Shown here: positions 42,605-50,684 of the stretch, piece after piece | Numbering within the stretch: the first letter of the stretch is position 1 | How the letters are laid out: every line of letters begins with the position of its first letter | From: Candidatus Vesicomyidisocius sp. Agig_15_S12 | Lineage (GTDB): Bacteria; Pseudomonadota; Gammaproteobacteria; PS1; Pseudothioglobaceae | Direction: 5' to 3' | DNA: 64,000 nucleotides | NCBI GenBank assembly: GCA_021730225.1 | Contig: CP072532.1 | Location: forward strand, 19,230-83,229 | The notes under the pieces: model-generated | The model's input: only the letters and a program-made list of their open reading frames with translations | Databases searched by the model: none | What the model was told of the DNA's origin: nothing | Translations under genes and position numbers: made by a program

Positions 42605-43285
42605 TTATTTAGTGGTTGAGATTAGCTTTTTTACTTCAAGTTCAGTTTTTTGTTCATTTTTAAACATTTTAATTCTATCACGTTCTATTTCCGCTTTGGG
42701 GCGAGTTTTTATATAATCAAATAATTTGATAACCTTGTAAACACCTTTGGCTTTAGCGGCAGTTTTGGCGGCCATGTCTGCTTCTCGTTTAGTTACGGCC
42801 CCCATAAGATAAACTACCTGATCTTCAGTCATCACCTGAACGTGGGTTGGATGAAATACCTCCTGATTTTGAAATAGTAACTCAACTTGTATAGTGATAG
42901 TTGAATCTTTAGCTCTACTAAGTAGTCCATTTGAAGGACCTAATTTAATTTCATTAAATATTTGTGAAATTTTTGGTGCTTGAAGTTGTGCTTGTTTACT
43001 TGTATAAATACGTATCTTAGGCGTTGCTACTTCTCCAGTAATGAGTACTGTTTTATTATAAACCATGAAATTAAGATGTGCATTGTTTAATATTAAATCT
43101 TTGTTAGACCAGTTAAATAACCTTAGAATAATAGTTTTATCATCTAACACTTCTCCAGCACTACGCCTATCATTACTTACTGAGATAATTGAGCTAATAG
43201 TTGAAACCCCTTGAATAGCTGATACACAAGCTGTTAAAAGTAAGAAGTTTATTATTAGAAGTGTTGATAGAATGAATTTTTTCAT
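42605..43285 (-). CDS. dolP: Dual-BON-domain outer-membrane lipoprotein (DolP/YraP)
   Basis: Lipobox LTAC, DRRSAGEVLDD, VLITGEV, VVYLMGAVT, GVYKVIKLFDY. Confidence 0.85.
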   Translation of the reverse strand: MKKFILSTLLIINFLLLTACVSAIQGVSTISSIISVSNDRRSAGEVLDDKTIILRLFNWSNKDLILNNAHLNFMVYNKTVLITGEVATPKIRIYTSKQAQLQAPKISQIFNEIKLGPSNGLLSRAKDSTITIQVELLFQNQEVFHPTHVQVMTEDQVVYLMGAVTKREADMAAKTAAKAKGVYKVIKLFDYIKTRPKAEIERDRIKMFKNEQKTELEVKKLISTTK

Positions 43286-44714: not shown

Positions 44715-45320
44715 TTATAAGTTAATTAGTTTTTTGTACAACTGATTAGTTTTATGGGTTAAATCAGCAATTGCTAGGTCATTTTTAATGATATCAGTAG
44801 GTAATTTATCACGCAATTTTAAGCGTAATGAATGACTAAATTGTGCAGAAACCATATTTTTTGCTTCCTTTGTATTAATATTATCACGATTGATCAATCT
44901 TTTTATTTGTTGTTTTTTATTGCAGCTAATAATAATTGCTCTATTAAATAAATGAGTAAGATTCTTCTCAGCTAAAAGCGGTACTTCAACCACCACTAAT
45001 TTAGTTTTTAGTTTTCCAATTTCATTTTCCATGCGTATTAATATTCTTGGATGTAGTACTGCTTCAATCAATTTTTGATTAGATTTTTTTTCTAATAAAA
45101 TTTTTCTTAAAGTACTACGGTTAAGGCTTTTATTCTTATTAAGAATATTATCACCAAAGTGTTTGATTAATTCTTTAAGTTCAATCGTGTTAGGTCTAAC
45201 AATTTTTTGTGCAAGCTTATCAAGACTTATAATATCTAAGCCTAAATTACTTAAGATGTGACTTACTTTTGATTTACCACAAGCAATTCCACCTGTTAAT
45301 GCTATTTTAATGATTGACAT
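44715..45320 (-). CDS. coaE: Dephospho-CoA kinase
   Basis: ALTGGIACGKS, LNRSTLR, LHPRI, VVEVPLLAE, RLINRD. Confidence 0.93.
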   Translation of the reverse strand: MSIIKIALTGGIACGKSKVSHILSNLGLDIISLDKLAQKIVRPNTIELKELIKHFGDNILNKNKSLNRSTLRKILLEKKSNQKLIEAVLHPRILIRMENEIGKLKTKLVVVEVPLLAEKNLTHLFNRAIIISCNKKQQIKRLINRDNINTKEAKNMVSAQFSHSLRLKLRDKLPTDIIKNDLAIADLTHKTNQLYKKLINL

Positions 45321-45404: not shown

Positions 45405-45481
45405 GGTTATGTAGCTCAGCTGGTTAGAGCACAGCATTCATAATGCTGGGGTCGGTGGTTCAAGTCCACCTATAACCACCA
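45405..45481 (+). tRNA. Elongator tRNA-Met(CAU)
   Basis: GGTTATG...TATAACCACCA; anticodon arm CAGCA-TTCATAA-TGCTG. Overall closer to the elongator Met type than to Ile2(CAU). Confidence 0.9.
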
Positions 45482-45625
45482 TATTATATAAGGTTTTAAG
45501 CCTTTATACCTGTTTATAAATAACTCTAGGATAACACAAGACCTATATTTAAATGTTATTTAAAGCAGTTTAGAGTTATTTAAAGTGTATGTTTTAATTT
45601 ATTTAACCCTTCATTATTTAGAAGA

Positions 45626-46140
45626 CTAATGAAACCCCTTCGTAATATTTTGGTCAGATAAGTTTTTCCATTGGATTTTTTTTTGGATAAATACATCATA
45701 ATATGTTTCTTTTAGGTCAGCATCACCAAAATCCAAAAAGGTTATTATCTTTTCACTTTTTTAATAGTTTAGAGTTTGCATAAACTTCGATGAAAAGAAG
45801 TTGTTTGTACGTTCTAACTTCACAAAATAATTGATTATTATTTGTTTTTCTTCTTGTGCCTAGTTACTGTTCTTTCTGTAGAAATCATTTTGTGAGAGAT
45901 ATTCTTCATATTTAATAGCAGAATTCTAAAATTTAACAACCTAGCTATCAGGCGTTTTGACGTCTACAATGTGTTTTTCACTAACCTTATTATGATGAAG
46001 TATAAGTATATCTTACTATTCTTTAGGTAATTGATTTTTCTAGTTACGACACATTTAGTTTTATTTTCCCGTTAATGTATCGATAGACCTCTTTGTGTTA
46101 GTTTGTGTTAGTTCGACAATATATTTTGGTTTCACCAAAT
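45626..46140 (-). pseudogene. Degraded CoiA-like nuclease-family gene
   Basis: One frame with in-frame stops reads EKHIVDVKTPDS*VVKF*NSAIKYEEYLSQNDFY, resembling the CoiA-type H.ADV.T..G.VIEFQ.S.I..EE...R..FY. Upstream boundary approximate. Confidence 0.5.
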
Positions 46141-46202
46141 TTAGTGGTTAGTTTAGAGTTATAACTATGGTATATTTCTGTTTAGTTCTATTTGTAAGTT
46201 TA

Positions 46203-46628
46203 TTACTTGCACCAACTTAATTTTTTACCACCATAATAACTATAAGCCAAGTCATTATCAAGTAGTTCTTGTTCTAAACTAATACCATCAACTATCACAT
46301 TGGCAATAACCCTAAAGTACTTACCTCTCTGTAAATTAGTCAACTTAATTTCTTCAGCATTGTTTAACTTACCTCTTACAAAATTTCTTGCTTTAATGGC
46401 TATATCCTTTTCATACTGGCACTTTCCTCGTATTTCTGGAGTGTCTATTCCATTCACTCTAATAGGTATATTCCTCCCTACGATAGGAGGTAGTAAGTCT
46501 ATGTTTACTCTGAAGGTATCGCCATCATAAACACTGATGACTTTTGATACTATTACTGTACCGTATTGTGGTTTTGATTGTACTTGAAAAACAAGAGTTG
46601 CTATAATAATAGATAAAAATAGTTTCAT
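46203..46628 (-). CDS. Secreted thermonuclease (staphylococcal-nuclease/SNase family)
   Basis: Signal-peptide-like MKLFLSIIIATLVFQVQS; VISVYDGDTF, IRVNGIDTPE, KYFRVIA. Equivalents of D19, D21, R35, D40, E43 and R87 are present. Confidence 0.92.
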   Translation of the reverse strand: MKLFLSIIIATLVFQVQSKPQYGTVIVSKVISVYDGDTFRVNIDLLPPIVGRNIPIRVNGIDTPEIRGKCQYEKDIAIKARNFVRGKLNNAEEIKLTNLQRGKYFRVIANVIVDGISLEQELLDNDLAYSYYGGKKLSWCK

Positions 46629-46646: not shown

Positions 46647-46859
46647 CTAATTTTTATATGCATCTTTAACTGCTTTATATAATGCTTTTTTAGTCTTGTA
46701 GTTTATATTCACAATACAAAAAATATCAAATTTATTTATCTCTTTATTGTAGGATACAACATTGAATAGTCCTTTACTATCTGATATAGTATTTTGAAAA
46801 CAAACAGAGTCGATTATCATTATTTTAGGATTTTTATCAATTTGAAAATACCCTAACAT
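46647..46859 (-). CDS. Hypothetical 70-aa ORF inside the island (may be a gene fragment)
   Basis: ATG-started ORF ending 18 nt upstream of the nuclease start; no motif recognised. Confidence 0.35.
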   Translation of the reverse strand: MLGYFQIDKNPKIMIIDSVCFQNTISDSKGLFNVVSYNKEINKFDIFCIVNINYKTKKALYKAVKDAYKN

Positions 46860-47142
46860 ATATATTTATATTGATTCTTATGACTAATCTTGAAGTAACT
46901 AAGGTATAAAGAAAAGTTAGAGCCTCAAGAAACGATACTGATTTATGTTTTTTGATAATTTTAATGTAGTCTTTTCCTGTAAATTTAGACAAAGTTTACT
47001 CAATTAAATTGATACTTAGGAATATTTGTAAATATTCATACAACTAATACAAATCATATGAATAGTAGTTGGTGTTTCTAATTTTATTTGTTACTTTTAT
47101 TTAAATATTTAATAATTCCAATCACTTTATTAAATATAATCA

Positions 47143-48294
47143 TTACCAATTTTCAACAAAATTTGTATAAATTTCCTTCTGTCTCTGTTTGCTCAATTCC
47201 AACCATACAAGAAGAATGTTGGATAAATTTCATTGTACCTCTATCATAGTTAAGAGTATATATTATTACACTGATTAAGCTAATACGTTTGTGATTGTTT
47301 AATCTCATCAGAACTCTAGTCTAATTTATTGGAAGTTTGGTTAAACATATCATCTAGTTGATGTCATTCTATTTCTAACTGTATCTCGCAACAAGTAACT
47401 ATAGCAGTTGTTAGTGGTGTTATAGGCAGTTTATGGTTACCTAGTGATATTCCTTTAAATACGACAGAACTATTCGTTTCTAATTTACTCCTATTTAACA
47501 TGTTCAACAAATAGTGTATTAATGATAATGTGTGGTTTTATAGTTTGTATTATTATAAATAGTTAAGTTTTATCTTTGTAATCAACATTACTCCATTTTA
47601 GGTTTGTAGTTTCTTTTCTATGTAAACCAGTAAATAGTATAAATACAAGCAGCTCTCTAACAGCATCTTCTGGATTTGATCCTTTTGTCTGGTAGCTCTT
47701 GTACAATCTTGTGCTATTTCTTTAAATTATATGATTTTATTATCACTTTTCTACATGTTTCTCTATTCTAGGCTTTAATGTGTCTAATCTTTTTGGTTGA
47801 GTTACTAATTATTATAGGTCAACCATTATTTCACACTCATCTTATTCATAATTAAATAAAGCTCTAAGTAGCTTCATAGAAGTGTTGGCTTTTGTTATAG
47901 ATTTTTGAGTCATGTCTCTATGTTTTTTCCACATCATCACGAGTAATACTTAATATTTTTTTATCTTTTTAATCAAATAGATAGTTGTTAATAATATGAG
48001 GATTCAAGTTAGTACAATGACTTGTAATATAATTATCCAGCATCTGCAAAAGGGTGTGATAACTTTAATAGTTTCACTATTTGCTTTTTTGGATTAATTC
48101 CACCACTGATATTGTCTAATATTTTTACGGCTTTACTTCTTGCTTTTTATAACACTATTAATGTAATTACGTTTTTACACAATAATTGATTTTATGCTAT
48201 TATTAGTAATCTAGAGGATTAGGTCCGTTAATTTCAGATACGGGCTGGTAGAGAATTCATTATTTTCCTTTGTGAAGCTTATTTATTTACTCAT
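47143..48294 (-). pseudogene. Degraded tyrosine recombinase/integrase with arm-type N-terminal domain
   Basis: Fragments KARSKAVKILDNISGGINP; SITRDDVEK; KANTSMKLLRALFNY; KA*NRETCRK; RELLVFILFTGLHRKETTNLKWSNVD (box I, R to H); NHTLSL; HQLDDMF (eroded HxLR); GTMKFIQ. The span of about 1.15 kb fits an integrase next to the right att site. Confidence 0.85.
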
Positions 48295-48454
48295 ATCTTT
48301 TATATAGTTAGGGATACAGAATGTGGTTATTTGATAGTGAGCAAGTACAAAGTGTGATGGATAATGAATTTATATATGATACTATTTTACAAGTATTTTA
48401 GTGAATATGAATGTATTGTAGTGGATGTAGGTTGAAATTGTAAGCATGAATTTT

Positions 48455-48498
48455 ATTATGCTGTGGTTGGTGATTCAACTCCACTTATAACCACCATA
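48455..48498 (+). repeat. Right attachment site: degenerate copy of the tRNA-Met 3' half
   Basis: attatgctgtggttggtgattcaactccacttataaccaccata vs ataatgctggggtcggtggttcaagtccacctataaccaccata (38/44 identical). Confidence 0.9.
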
Positions 48499-48698
48499 AT
48501 AATGTCATAATTTGGATTGTGTTTTAATGTGTGTCTTTGATTTTTAATCTAACGTAGAAAAGTTAGCCTTATAATTTAATTAATTTTTCTCATGATTATG
48601 ATTATTTTTTTGTTATAAGAAATCATTTTTGATGTGTCTTAAATAAAGAGTATTTTTTTACGTATAATCATTTAGTATTTTGTTCAAGGAATTTTACT

Positions 48699-50684
48699 AT
48701 GCCATCACGCAGAGATTTAGCAAATGCCATTCGTGTTTTAAGTATGGATGCAGTTCAAAGGGCAAATTCAGGTCATCCAGGTGCACCAATGGGTATGGCA
48801 GATATTGCAGAGGTACTTTGGAATGATCATTTAAAGTATAACCCAATGAATGCTAAGTGGACTAATCGTGACCGTTTTGTGTTATCAAATGGACATGGTT
48901 CAATGCTTATTTACTCATTACTACATTTGTCAGGTTATGACCTTAATATGGATGATATTAAAGATTTTCGTCAATTACATGCTAGAACTGCAGGACATCC
49001 TGAATATGGTTATGTAGATGGTATTGAAACAACAACAGGTCCATTAGGACAAGGTATTACTAATGCAGTTGGTATGGCAATTGCTGAGCGAACATTGGGC
49101 GCACAATTTAACAAGTTGGGTCATAATATTGTTGATCATAACACATATGTGTTTATGGGTGATGGTTGTTTAATGGAAGGTCTATCTCACGAATCTTGTG
49201 CTATGGCAGGTACATTAGGACTTGGCAAATTAATTGTCTTTTGGGATGATAATGATATTTCTATTGATGGTCATATTTCTGACTGGATGGAAAAAGATGT
49301 GGCAAGTCGTTTTGAGTCTTATGGTTGGCATGTTGTTCGCGATGTTAATGGTCATGACCCTGATGCAATTAATTCTGCAATTAATGCAGCTAAGGGTGAA
49401 ATTACTAAACCCTCATTTATTTGTACACGTACAACTATTGGTTTTGGTTCACCTAATTTATGTGGTACTCATAATTGTCATGGTGCACCACTTGGTAATG
49501 AGGAAATTGAAGCAACTCGTAAAGAGTTGGGTTGGGATTTTGCTCCATTTGAAATTCCTGTAGATATTTATGCAGGATGGGATCATAAAAAAAAAGGTAT
49601 TGCTGATGAATTAGCTTGGAATGTTAAATTTGCAGCTTATAAGGCGGAGTTTTCAGCAGATGCTGCTGAGTTTGAGCGTCGTATGTCTGGTAATTTGCCT
49701 GTTAACTTTGAAGTTGAGATGGATCAATTTATTGCTAAAACACAGGATGAAATGCCAAGCATTGCTTCTCGTCAGGCCTCTCAACGTACTATTGAAGTTA
49801 TGGGTCCACTATTGCCAGAAATGTTTGGTGGCTCTGCTGATTTAACTGGTTCTAATTTAACTAATTGGTCAGGAACTGTTAAAGTGAATGCACAAAATGC
49901 AAATGGTAATTACCTTTCATGGGGTGTACGTGAATTTGGTATGGCACATATGATGAATGGTATAGTGCTTCATGGTGGTTTTAAGGTTTATGGCGCAACT
50001 TTCTTTATGTTTATGGAATTTATGCGTAATGCATTACGTATGTCAGCACTTATGAAAATTGGTACAATTTATGTTTATACCCATGATTCTATTGGTTTAG
50101 GAGAAGATGGACCTACGCATCAGCCAGTTGAACAGTTAGCAACTATGCGTATGATTCCTAACTTCCAGTCTTGGAGAGGGTGTGATGCAGTTGAATCAGC
50201 AGTTTCTTGGAAGATGGCGATGCTTAGAGGTGATGCACCAACAGGATTGGTATTTTCACGTCAAACTTTGATAGCAATGGAACGAACTTCTGAACAAGTA
50301 GAAAATATTGAAAAAGGAGGTTATGTTATTAAAGATTGTGAAGGCGTTGCTGATATTATTTTTATTGCGACTGGTTCTGAAGTGAATTTAGCAATTGAAG
50401 CGGTAGCGGCCATAAATGTTAAGGTTCGTGTAGTTTCAATGCCTTGTACAAATGCTTATGATGATCAAGATCAAGCTTATAAAGATTCAGTTTTAACACC
50501 GGGGGTTAAGCGCCTTGCGATTGAGGCAGGTGTTGCTGATGGATGGTATAAATACGTAGGCTTAGATGGTGGTGTGGTTTGTATGACAACTTTTGGTGAA
50601 TCTGCACCGGCAGATCAATTGTTTAAAGTATTTGGTTTTACCATAGATAATGTCATTGCACAAGCAAAAGCTATTATTGGCTAG
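48699..50684 (+). CDS. tkt: Transketolase
   Basis: [69 protein letters not shown]. Confidence 0.99.

What the first reader, a model, noticed from the sequence alone, without database searches (positions are those of the whole stretch)
46203..46628. A domesticated secreted thermonuclease is the only clearly intact gene of the dead island
The flanking integrase and CoiA-like genes carry many stops and frameshifts. The 141-aa SNase is uninterrupted, keeps a signal peptide and keeps all catalytic and Ca-binding residues (DGDT, R..GIDTPE, KYFR). That contrast points to purifying selection after immobilisation. Established: secreted SNase-type nucleases degrade extracellular nucleic acids, including host DNA traps. 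Inference: a mobile-element nuclease co-opted for nucleotide or phosphate scavenging or for host interaction in a symbiont.
Basis: partly seen in the sequence, partly recalled or inferred. Interest (0 to 1): 0.75.

Follow-up and report, generated by a model that had tools for sequence, protein, structure and literature searches.

The report
Exported nuclease surviving a dead island
A small DNA/RNA-cutting enzyme with an export signal is the only working gene left in a decayed 3-kb mobile island of a deep-sea clam symbiont; selection has kept it intact, but it probably stays in the periplasm and is an ordinary member of a known enzyme family.

Summary
Window 46203-46628 (-) encodes an intact 141-aa staphylococcal-nuclease (SNase) homologue. 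It has a Sec-type signal peptide and every catalytic and Ca-binding residue.

It lies in a ~3-kb island between tRNA-Met (45405-45481) and an 84%-identical 50-nt repeat of the tRNA 3' half (48452-48501). The island's P4-type integrase is a wreck (48055-47451, at least 10 stops, at least 2 frames). The "CoiA-like" neighbour could not be confirmed.

The genome is a ~1.03-Mb clade I vesicomyid clam symbiont, sister to Ca. Vesicomyosocius okutanii. Purifying selection is clear:
- dN/dS is 0.09-0.15, against 0.08-0.45 for housekeeping neighbours.
- There are no indels in 426 bp, against 12-17 indel events per kb in the island flanks.

All five clade I genomes examined keep the gene at this site. 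One (G006) carries a different island and a divergent allele, so the nuclease may have been captured and retained twice. Clade II relatives lack it or carry it broken.

"Secreted" is overstated. The genome has signal peptidase I and DsbA but no secretin, so a periplasmic location is most likely. The host DNA-trap idea has no support. NCBI already annotates the V. okutanii orthologue as a thermonuclease family protein.

The parts
44715..45320 (-). coaE (dephospho-CoA kinase), the left chromosomal flank of the integration site
   Evidence: Pfam CoaE E 3.5e-48. In G003, G009, G010 and G011 coaE and tkt lie only about 320-340 bp apart, which is the empty site.
45405..45481 (+). tRNA-Met (CAU), the integration target and attL side of the island
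   Evidence: ARAGORN; Rfam tRNA 69 bits. The same tRNA borders the islands in G001, G005, G006, G002 and G004.
45482..46202 (.).
   Evidence: No ORF of 50 aa or more. No Pfam or PHROG hit in the stop-masked minus-strand frames; the plus frames look like non-coding sequence by eye and were not searched. Positions 45566-46133 are deleted in G005. Divergence from G001 is 12-13% with 14 indel events.
46203..46628 (-). Intact SNase-family nuclease gene, 141 aa. The signal peptide is roughly codons 1-18 (46575-46628); the mature domain is 46206-46574.
   Evidence: dN/dS 0.09-0.15. 0 indels in 426 bp.
46647..46859 (-). 70-aa ORF, probably a leftover of a larger island gene and not conserved
   Evidence: No family hit. 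Absent from G001 and CP072537.1. In G005 residues 6-69 still align without a stop, but no ORF of 50 aa or more is called there.
47451..48055 (-). Pseudogene of a P4-type tyrosine integrase
   Evidence: tblastn with the G002 integrase (residues 99-322) gives E 9e-17 and 2.5e-16, with 8-10 stops per piece and pieces in at least two frames. The intact G007 integrase (Arm-DNA-bind_3 plus Phage_integrase) gives E 2e-13. The Pfam model itself no longer detects it.
48452..48501 (+). Degenerate direct repeat of the tRNA-Met 3' half (attR)
   Evidence: 50 nt, 84% identical to 45437-45486, spacing 3015 bp. Also present in G001 and G005, and 98% identical over 45 nt in G002.
48699..50684 (+). tkt (transketolase), the right chromosomal flank
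   Evidence: ORF of 661 aa. Pfam Transketolase domains on the CP072537.1 orthologue. Synteny.

Best explanation
The gene encodes a functional Ca2+-dependent nuclease of the staphylococcal-nuclease family that is exported by the Sec pathway. It arrived as cargo of a P4-type integrative element that inserted at tRNA-Met between coaE and tkt.

Shown: in the ~1.0-Mb clade I vesicomyid clam symbionts the element has lost its integrase and everything else. The nuclease has been kept by purifying selection about as strong as on housekeeping neighbours.

Inferred mechanism:
1. SecYEG exports the protein.
2. Signal peptidase I cleaves after V-Q-S.
3. DsbA oxidises the invariant pair C70/C140.
4. The mature 123-aa enzyme stays in the periplasm and cuts DNA or RNA that reaches it into 3'-phosphorylated fragments.

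In free-living SUP05 relatives the same family sits in flexible regions and next to integrative elements, under even stronger constraint. There it most likely acts on extracellular or incoming nucleic acid.

What it does for the clam symbiont is not established. My best guess is degradation or salvage of nucleic-acid fragments in the cell envelope. It is not needed for the clam symbiosis as such, because clade II symbionts do without it.
For: Identity and integrity:
- all catalytic residues invariant; SNase fold, pLDDT 89, Foldseek probability 1.00.

Export:
- A variable signal peptide with a conserved cleavage site sits in front of a near-invariant mature domain, and C70/C140 are invariant.
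- LepB is present and so is a DsbA-like gene.
- No secretin is present. Loss of T1SS, T2SS and porins is reported in PMC7826175.

Island:
- tRNA-Met plus a 50-nt repeat.
- Integrase wreck.
- The site is empty in G003, G009, G010 and G011. It holds other islands in G002 and G004.

Selection:
- dN/dS is 0.09-0.15, against 0.08-0.45 for truB, purD, BON, rsmI, coaE, tkt and gap.
- Binomial P for the synonymous excess runs from 1e-9 to 4.5e-4.
- Flank divergence is 12-13% with 12.5-16.5 indel events per kb. The gene shows 7.5-8% divergence and 0 indels. Poisson P(0) is 9e-4 and 5e-3.
- The gene is intact in G000, G001, G005, G006 and CP072537.1.

Possible second capture:
- The G006 island shares only the mature-domain DNA with the G000-type island.
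- dS between G006 and G000 is 0.69, against 0.11-0.18 for neighbouring genes and 0.38-0.47 to environmental copies.

Mobile-element association of the family:
- Next to an intact integrase/HTH/helicase-like element in G007.
- Next to type I R-M and DUF3987 genes in L053.
- Homologues on a temperate vent phage at 51% identity, in IMG/VR viral contigs at up to 53% and on plasmids at 31-45%.
Against:
- No Shine-Dalgarno sequence or conserved promoter can be named. Sequence more than about 51 bp upstream is unrelated in G001.
- Signal-peptide cleavage, the disulfide and the periplasmic location are inferred, not computed with a dedicated predictor.
- Nuclease activity is inferred from residues and fold only.
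- In free-living relatives the gene often lies among Sel1/MORN genes with no integrase nearby. It may therefore be a flexible-genome gene that hitch-hiked rather than core island cargo.
- The protein tree does not reject a single clade of all clam copies (AU p 0.67). The two-capture scenario rests on dS and on island content.
Confidence: 0.8

Rival explanations
1. One reading: the nuclease is truly secreted into the symbiosome or host cell. There it degrades host nucleic acids (DNA traps, or nucleotide and phosphate scavenging) as a symbiosis factor.
For: Signal peptide and an intact active site. Secreted SNase homologues of S. aureus and N. gonorrhoeae remodel eDNA and degrade neutrophil traps (PMC13584700). 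Purifying selection in clade I.
Against: No secretin. T1SS, T2SS and porins are reported lost (PMC7826175). Clade II clam symbionts lack the gene, or have it broken, in the same kind of host, and they have no EndA-type substitute. The only 5'-nucleotidase-fold protein is SoxB, so no periplasmic nucleotidase is visible to finish scavenging.
Confidence: 0.1
2. It still acts as a mobile-element style barrier: a periplasmic nuclease that destroys incoming DNA from transformation, phage or conjugation. This is the job of the island- and ICE-borne exported nucleases that block natural transformation in Vibrio and Campylobacter.
For: The family sits at the edge of integrative elements, and on phages and plasmids. 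This role is plausible as the original one in free-living SUP05.
Against: Clade I genomes have no ComEC, no secretin and no tyrosine recombinase at all. They are intracellular and mostly maternally transmitted (abstracts listed). Little incoming DNA is left to block, yet selection persists.
Confidence: 0.12
3. The ORF is intact only by chance, being short and perhaps recently acquired, and is on its way to decay like its neighbours.
For: It is small (426 bp). Relatives G007 and G011 carry broken copies. No expression evidence exists.
Against: The island flanks have diverged as much as genome-wide synonymous sites (p 0.12-0.13 against dS 0.10-0.25). The island therefore predates the split of G000, G001 and G005. 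Over that time the gene took 0 indels where 5-7 are expected and shows a 3- to 9-fold deficit of non-synonymous changes. It is intact in all five clade I genomes.
Confidence: 0.02
4. The nuclease is not island cargo. It is an old flexible-genome gene of the SUP05 group that happens to lie next to an integration hot spot and was enclosed by rearrangement.
For: In G012 and in several metagenome contigs it lies among Sel1, MORN_2 and DUF723 genes with no integrase within several kb. In G007 it sits just outside the intact integrase-to-helicase module.
Against: In G000, G001, G005 and CP072537.1 it lies between the tRNA and its att repeat. The site is empty in four relatives. Its position and orientation differ between the G000-type and G006 islands. 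Close homologues occur on phages and plasmids.
Confidence: 0.15

Closest known systems
Staphylococcus aureus nuclease A / thermonuclease (Nuc; Pfam PF00565)
   Same: Same fold (Foldseek probability 1.00, TM about 0.65). The same Ca-binding and catalytic residues align one to one. Both have a signal peptide followed by a single small domain.
   Different: Only about 24% identical. The host is a diderm, so export ends in the periplasm unless a further route exists. An invariant Cys pair (C70/C140) is absent from the aligned S. aureus sequences. The protein is shorter at the C-terminus.
Neisseria gonorrhoeae Nuc thermonuclease (a Gram-negative SNase homologue)
   Same: An SNase homologue in a Gram-negative host-associated bacterium. 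It acts on extracellular DNA in biofilms and neutrophil traps (PMC13584700).
   Different: Gonococcal Nuc is described as extracellular. Here no outer-membrane secretion route is detectable. There is no evidence of biofilm or immune-trap biology in a clam bacteriocyte. Sequence relatedness to it was not tested.
Thermonuclease-family genes carried by marine mobile elements (Sulfurimonas phage SNW-1 WAK43917.1; plasmids of Shewanella, Photobacterium and Desulfocapsa)
   Same: Full-length homologues at 37-51% identity. The closer viral homologues in alignment A4 (43-53% identical) show a hydrophobic N-terminus and the Cys pair. They are carried as single accessory genes on mobile DNA.
   Different: They sit on active elements and their function is untested. 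The gene studied here sits in a dead element in a reduced symbiont genome.
Exported nucleases of integrative elements that block natural transformation (IdeA of Vibrio ICEs; Dns, CJE0566 and CJE1441 of Campylobacter integrated elements). Named from an earlier scan note and from my own memory.
   Same: A single exported nuclease gene as cargo of an integrative element. This may be the ancestral logic in free-living SUP05.
   Different: As far as I recall those belong to other nuclease families (endonuclease I or non-specific endonucleases); this was not tested here. Clade I symbionts lack the ComEC and secretin uptake machinery, so that role cannot explain present retention.
ParB nuclease of IncP plasmid RP4/RK2 (from my own memory; the one paper search found no paper on it)
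   Same: An SNase homologue with an N-terminal signal-like sequence encoded by a mobile element of Gram-negative bacteria.
   Different: It is part of a plasmid stability operon. No such partners are present here. Relatedness was not tested.

Membership tests
Staphylococcal nuclease / thermonuclease family (PF00565) | Sequence match above the curated family threshold | tested here: met
   31 bits against a cut-off of 21, E 3.7e-7. PHROG 452 endonuclease E 2.7e-19. The NCBIfam equivalogs EcnA and NucI score far below their cut-offs, so it is not either of those named subfamilies.
Staphylococcal nuclease / thermonuclease family (PF00565) | OB-fold barrel plus helices of SNase | tested here: met
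   AF2 model pLDDT 89, pTM 0.79. All top 50 Foldseek PDB hits are S. aureus nuclease, probability 1.00, TM 0.60-0.66.
Staphylococcal nuclease / thermonuclease family (PF00565) | Ca2+ ligands (Asp21, Asp40, Thr41) and catalytic Arg35, Glu43, Arg87, plus Lys84/Tyr85 | tested here: met
   D37, D62, T63, R57, E65, R106, K103 and Y104 align to these residues. All but T63, which is nearly invariant, are invariant in 41 diverse homologues.
Staphylococcal nuclease / thermonuclease family (PF00565) | Ca2+-dependent hydrolysis of DNA and RNA to 3'-phosphate products | not testable with these tools
   Needs a recombinant enzyme assay.
tRNA-targeting genomic island with a P4-type integrase | Insertion at the 3' end of a tRNA gene, with a direct repeat of the tRNA 3' part at the far end | tested here: met
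   tRNA-Met 45405-45481 and a 50-nt repeat at 48452-48501, 84% identical. The site is empty in four relatives.
tRNA-targeting genomic island with a P4-type integrase | Tyrosine integrase (arm-binding plus catalytic domain) next to an att site | tested here: met
   Present only as a pseudogene: 48055-47451 (-) matches residues 99-322 of the G002 integrase, E 9e-17, with at least 10 stops. The intact G007 relative has Arm-DNA-bind_3 plus Phage_integrase.
tRNA-targeting genomic island with a P4-type integrase | Capacity to excise or move | tested here: not met
   The integrase is destroyed. No tyrosine recombinase exists anywhere in the genome. attR has degenerated to 84%. The element is a dead remnant.
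Domesticated (co-opted) mobile-element gene | Mobile-element origin, loss of mobility, and purifying selection after immobilisation | tested here: met
   The gene lies inside the att-bounded remnant. dN/dS is 0.09-0.15, with 0 indels against 12-17 per kb in the flanks, among genomes that share the already decayed island.
Domesticated (co-opted) mobile-element gene | A demonstrated function for the host cell | not testable with these tools
No genetics exists for this uncultured symbiont.
Secreted (extracellular) nuclease of a Gram-negative bacterium | A route across the outer membrane | tested here: not met
   No secretin (PF00263) in the genome. T1SS, T2SS and porins are reported lost in these symbionts (PMC7826175). 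Release by vesicles or by lysis cannot be excluded.
   No hit in the whole genome at E up to 1. No Pfam or PHROG hit in stop-masked minus-strand frames of 45482-46202 and 46647-48470; the plus frames were only read by eye.

The most novel reading that the evidence does not exclude
Two different SNase-bearing islands were captured independently at the same tRNA-Met hot spot in clade I clam symbionts. Both decayed completely except for the nuclease. On this reading, these highly reduced symbionts (no recA, XerCD or ComEC) gained, after becoming obligate, a clade-specific need for a periplasmic nuclease. That need might be use of host or lysed-symbiont nucleic acids as a phosphorus or nucleoside source, or clearance of nucleic acid from the envelope. 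It would be a case of a mobile-element gene becoming a fixed symbiosis trait by convergent retention.
Probability: 0.2. Interest if true: 0.6.

Novelty: new member of a known kind. Interest (0 to 1): 0.35.

Why it matters
Vesicomyid clam symbionts are a model for genome erosion in marine, maternally transmitted bacteria. Here a gene brought in by a mobile element outlived the element and is held under selection as strong as on core metabolic genes. This is a clean, datable example of gene gain persisting within an eroding genome. It complements recent claims that erosion in this group can be offset by mobile elements (bioRxiv 10.64898/2026.10.22.761039).

The gene also marks a clade I against clade II difference that could be tested in gill transcriptomes and proteomes. 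The enzyme itself is ordinary and already annotated. The biological pay-off depends on showing expression and a role.

Tried and rejected
1. Pfam model searches for the integrase (PF00589) and CoiA (PF06054) in the genome, and Pfam and PHROGs on stop-masked minus-strand translations of the island, found nothing. The integrase was recovered only by tblastn with intact relatives. CoiA was never recovered.

2. The first AlphaFold run used 41 near-identical homologues and gave pLDDT 59.6, so I discarded it. A diverse alignment fixed it.

3. The quick protein tree placed G006 apart from the other clam copies. The AU test does not reject one clam clade (p 0.67), and the constrained tree even scored better. 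I therefore do not use the tree as evidence for two captures.

4. I looked for att repeats around the G007 element and found none convincing.

5. Phage origin: the best viral matches are only 43-53% identical. The 77-86% identical metagenome homologues are not in the viral collection. A direct phage origin is not shown.

6. Replacement of a lost EndA-type nuclease: EndA is absent from clade I and from most clade II genomes alike, so I rejected this.

7. Promoter and terminator scans gave only consensus-level matches, not above shuffled expectation in any useful way.

8. Literature searches for the gene in vesicomyid symbiont papers and one supplement set found nothing.

Full report
**What is there**

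Window 46203-46628 (-) is an uninterrupted ATG-started ORF of 141 aa. It matches Pfam SNase above the curated threshold (31 bits against 21) and PHROG 452 "endonuclease" (E 2.7e-19).

phmmer against PDB sequences aligns residues 30-132 to S. aureus nuclease. An AlphaFold model built on a diverse alignment has pLDDT 89. All 50 top-ranked Foldseek PDB matches listed are S. aureus nuclease (probability 1.00, TM about 0.65).

The catalytic and Ca-binding set is complete:
- D35/D37/T38 correspond to D19/D21/T22.
- R57 corresponds to R35.
- D62/T63/E65 correspond to D40/T41/E43.
- K103/Y104/R106 correspond to K84/Y85/R87.

Apart from the nearly invariant threonines T38 and T63, these positions are invariant across 41 homologues down to 33% identity.

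The N-terminus (MKLFLSIIIATLVFQVQS|KPQYG) looks like a Sec signal peptide. In 41 close homologues the signal region is hypervariable. The cleavage motif [VT]-Q-[AS]|[AK]-P-Q-Y-G and the mature domain are almost invariant, including two cysteines, C70 and C140.

**Where it sits**

The window is positions 19230-83229 of a single 1,033,397-bp contig at about 32% G+C. Its nearest relative, G001, is 1,022,154 bp. A source names the G001 orthologue [quoted passage not shown]. The genome is therefore a clade I ("gigas group") vesicomyid clam symbiont. The clade naming follows PMC5310779 and bioRxiv 10.64898/2026.10.22.761039.

The gene lies between coaE and tkt, in a 3-kb stretch bounded by two features:
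- tRNA-Met(CAU) at 45405-45481.
- A 50-nt, 84%-identical direct repeat of the tRNA 3' half at 48452-48501.

In G003, G009, G010 and G011, coaE and tkt are only about 320-340 bp apart, which is the empty site. G002 and G004 carry other islands there. The G002 island has a 98%-identical att repeat and an integrase broken by one frameshift, and it has no nuclease. The site is thus an integration hot spot.

**The neighbours are dead**

Pfam no longer detects an integrase anywhere in the genome. tblastn with the G002 and G007 integrases does recover one. The G007 protein is intact and has Arm-DNA-bind_3 plus Phage_integrase domains. The remnant lies at 48055-47451 (-). It covers residues 99-322, with E 9e-17 and 2e-13, at least 10 stops, and pieces in at least two frames.

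The other island sequence is also decayed:
- 45482-46202 has no ORF of 50 aa or more and no family match in its minus-strand frames. Most of it is deleted in G005.
- The 70-aa ORF upstream of the nuclease is missing from G001 and CP072537.1, and in G005 no ORF of 50 aa or more is called at its place.

**Selection**

I compared G000, G001, G005 and CP072537.1, which share the same decayed island.

| Measure | Island flanks | Nuclease gene |
|---|---|---|
| Nucleotide divergence | 12-13% | 7.5-8% |
| Indel events | 12.5-16.5 per kb | 0 in 426 bp |

Poisson P(0 indels) is 9e-4 and 5e-3.

Flank divergence equals the synonymous divergence of neighbouring genes (dS 0.10-0.25). The island was therefore already present, and probably already dead, in the common ancestor of these genomes.

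Pairwise dN/dS of the nuclease is 0.09-0.15. Seven housekeeping neighbours give 0.08-0.45. Published values for clade I genes are 0.1-0.5 (PMC5310779). The excess of synonymous changes is significant in every pair (binomial P 1e-9 to 4.5e-4). Among free-living-type metagenome copies dN/dS is 0.04-0.07. Constraint in the symbionts is therefore relaxed about two-fold but still strong.

**A possible second capture**

The fourth clade I species, G006, also has an intact nuclease at the tRNA-Met site, but its island differs in four ways:
- The gene is inverted.
- The remnants include a UvrD/helicase IV-like gene.
- Nothing but the mature-domain part of the nuclease aligns with the G000-type island.
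- dS between the G006 and G000 copies is 0.69-1.1, against 0.11-0.18 for neighbouring genes. The G006 copy is closer to environmental copies (dS 0.38-0.47).

This fits two captures from an environmental pool, or replacement of one island by another. In either case the nuclease was retained both times.

The short protein alignment cannot confirm this. The AU test does not reject a single clam clade.

**Who else has it**

About 3,900 homologues were found in metagenomes. Many are 77-86% identical and about 141 aa long. Their contexts are flexible regions with Sel1, MORN_2, DUF723, type I R-M and DUF3987 genes.

- In G007, a 1.45-Mb clade II genome rich in IS elements, the gene sits beside an intact integrase/HTH/helicase-like element. 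It is itself broken by a frameshift inside GVDTPE.
- G011 has a more distant broken copy.
- The 1.2-Mb Ruthia-type genomes have none.
- More distant homologues are on a temperate Sulfurimonas vent phage (51%), in IMG/VR viral contigs (up to 53%) and on marine plasmids (31-45%).

**How it most likely works**

Shown: an intact SNase active site and fold, an export signal, and purifying selection.

Inferred: Sec export, cleavage by signal peptidase I (present), and disulfide formation by a DsbA-like protein (present).

The end point is most likely the periplasm. The genome has no secretin, and these symbionts are reported to have lost type I and II secretion and porins (PMC7826175).

The likely ancestral role in free-living SUP05 is action on extracellular or incoming nucleic acid. 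That role cannot be the present one for DNA uptake, because ComEC is absent from all four clade I genomes searched.

Nutrient scavenging lacks a visible periplasmic nucleotidase. The only 5'-nucleotidase-fold protein is SoxB. An exported nuclease is also not required for the clam symbiosis in general. Clade II symbionts lack this gene and also lack EndA.

The present role therefore remains open. I favour envelope-level degradation or salvage of nucleic-acid fragments, with low confidence.

**Verdict**

The "secreted", host-trap and CoiA parts are not supported.

The enzyme is an ordinary, already annotated member of a well-known family. The evolutionary pattern is neat and apparently undescribed, but of moderate interest. 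It has two parts: clade-I-wide and possibly repeated retention of a mobile-element nuclease, and its occurrence in genomes that have lost recombinases, competence and secretion genes.

Noticed in passing
whole genome G000; also G001, G005, G006: No tyrosine recombinase (PF00589) at all, and therefore no XerC/XerD, in any of the four ~1.0-Mb clade I genomes. All 14 control genomes and the clade II relatives have them. How these single circular chromosomes resolve dimers is not obvious; loss of recA may make it moot.
   Followed up: partly
L059 (G002:C1:71500-79000), about 1119-6830: A Ruthia-type genome has a different 5.7-kb island at the same tRNA-Met site. It has a 98%-identical 45-nt att repeat and an integrase broken by a single frameshift (325 + 93 aa). 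Its cargo ORFs look intact: a 262-aa putative lipoprotein, exported proteins of 180 and 111 aa, and a 245-aa protein. This looks like a younger stage of the same decay process.
   Followed up: partly
L018 (G006:C1:59000-75000), 6192-7401: The G006 island carries fragments of a UvrD/helicase IV-like gene (PF00580 E 3.7e-11; NCBIfam helicase IV E 1.4e-18). This gene is absent from the G000-type island.
   Followed up: partly
L020 (G007) 6048-8006; L053, L055, L056; L019 (G012) 9286-11181: In free-living-type relatives the nuclease gene recurs next to Sel1-repeat and MORN_2-repeat proteins and DUF723 proteins. In several contigs its start overlaps the upstream gene within tightly packed same-strand arrays of unknown small genes. 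This may be a conserved flexible-genome module of SUP05.
   Followed up: no
window 46575-46628 against L018, L020, L019: DNA homology between nuclease copies of different lineages starts almost exactly at the mature domain. The signal-peptide codons are unalignable, while the mature domain is 82-86% identical at the DNA level.
   Followed up: partly
L016 (G001) 8893-11230; L017 (G005) 9383-11888: G001 and G005 keep about 2.3-2.5 kb of extra decayed island DNA that G000 has deleted. Part of it is alignable between G001 and G005. The island is shrinking by different deletions in each lineage.
   Followed up: partly
window 42605-43285 (BON-domain gene) against L018: The tblastn match of the BON-domain protein in G006 contains a stop codon. 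This may be a premature stop or only the terminal codon; I did not check.
   Followed up: no
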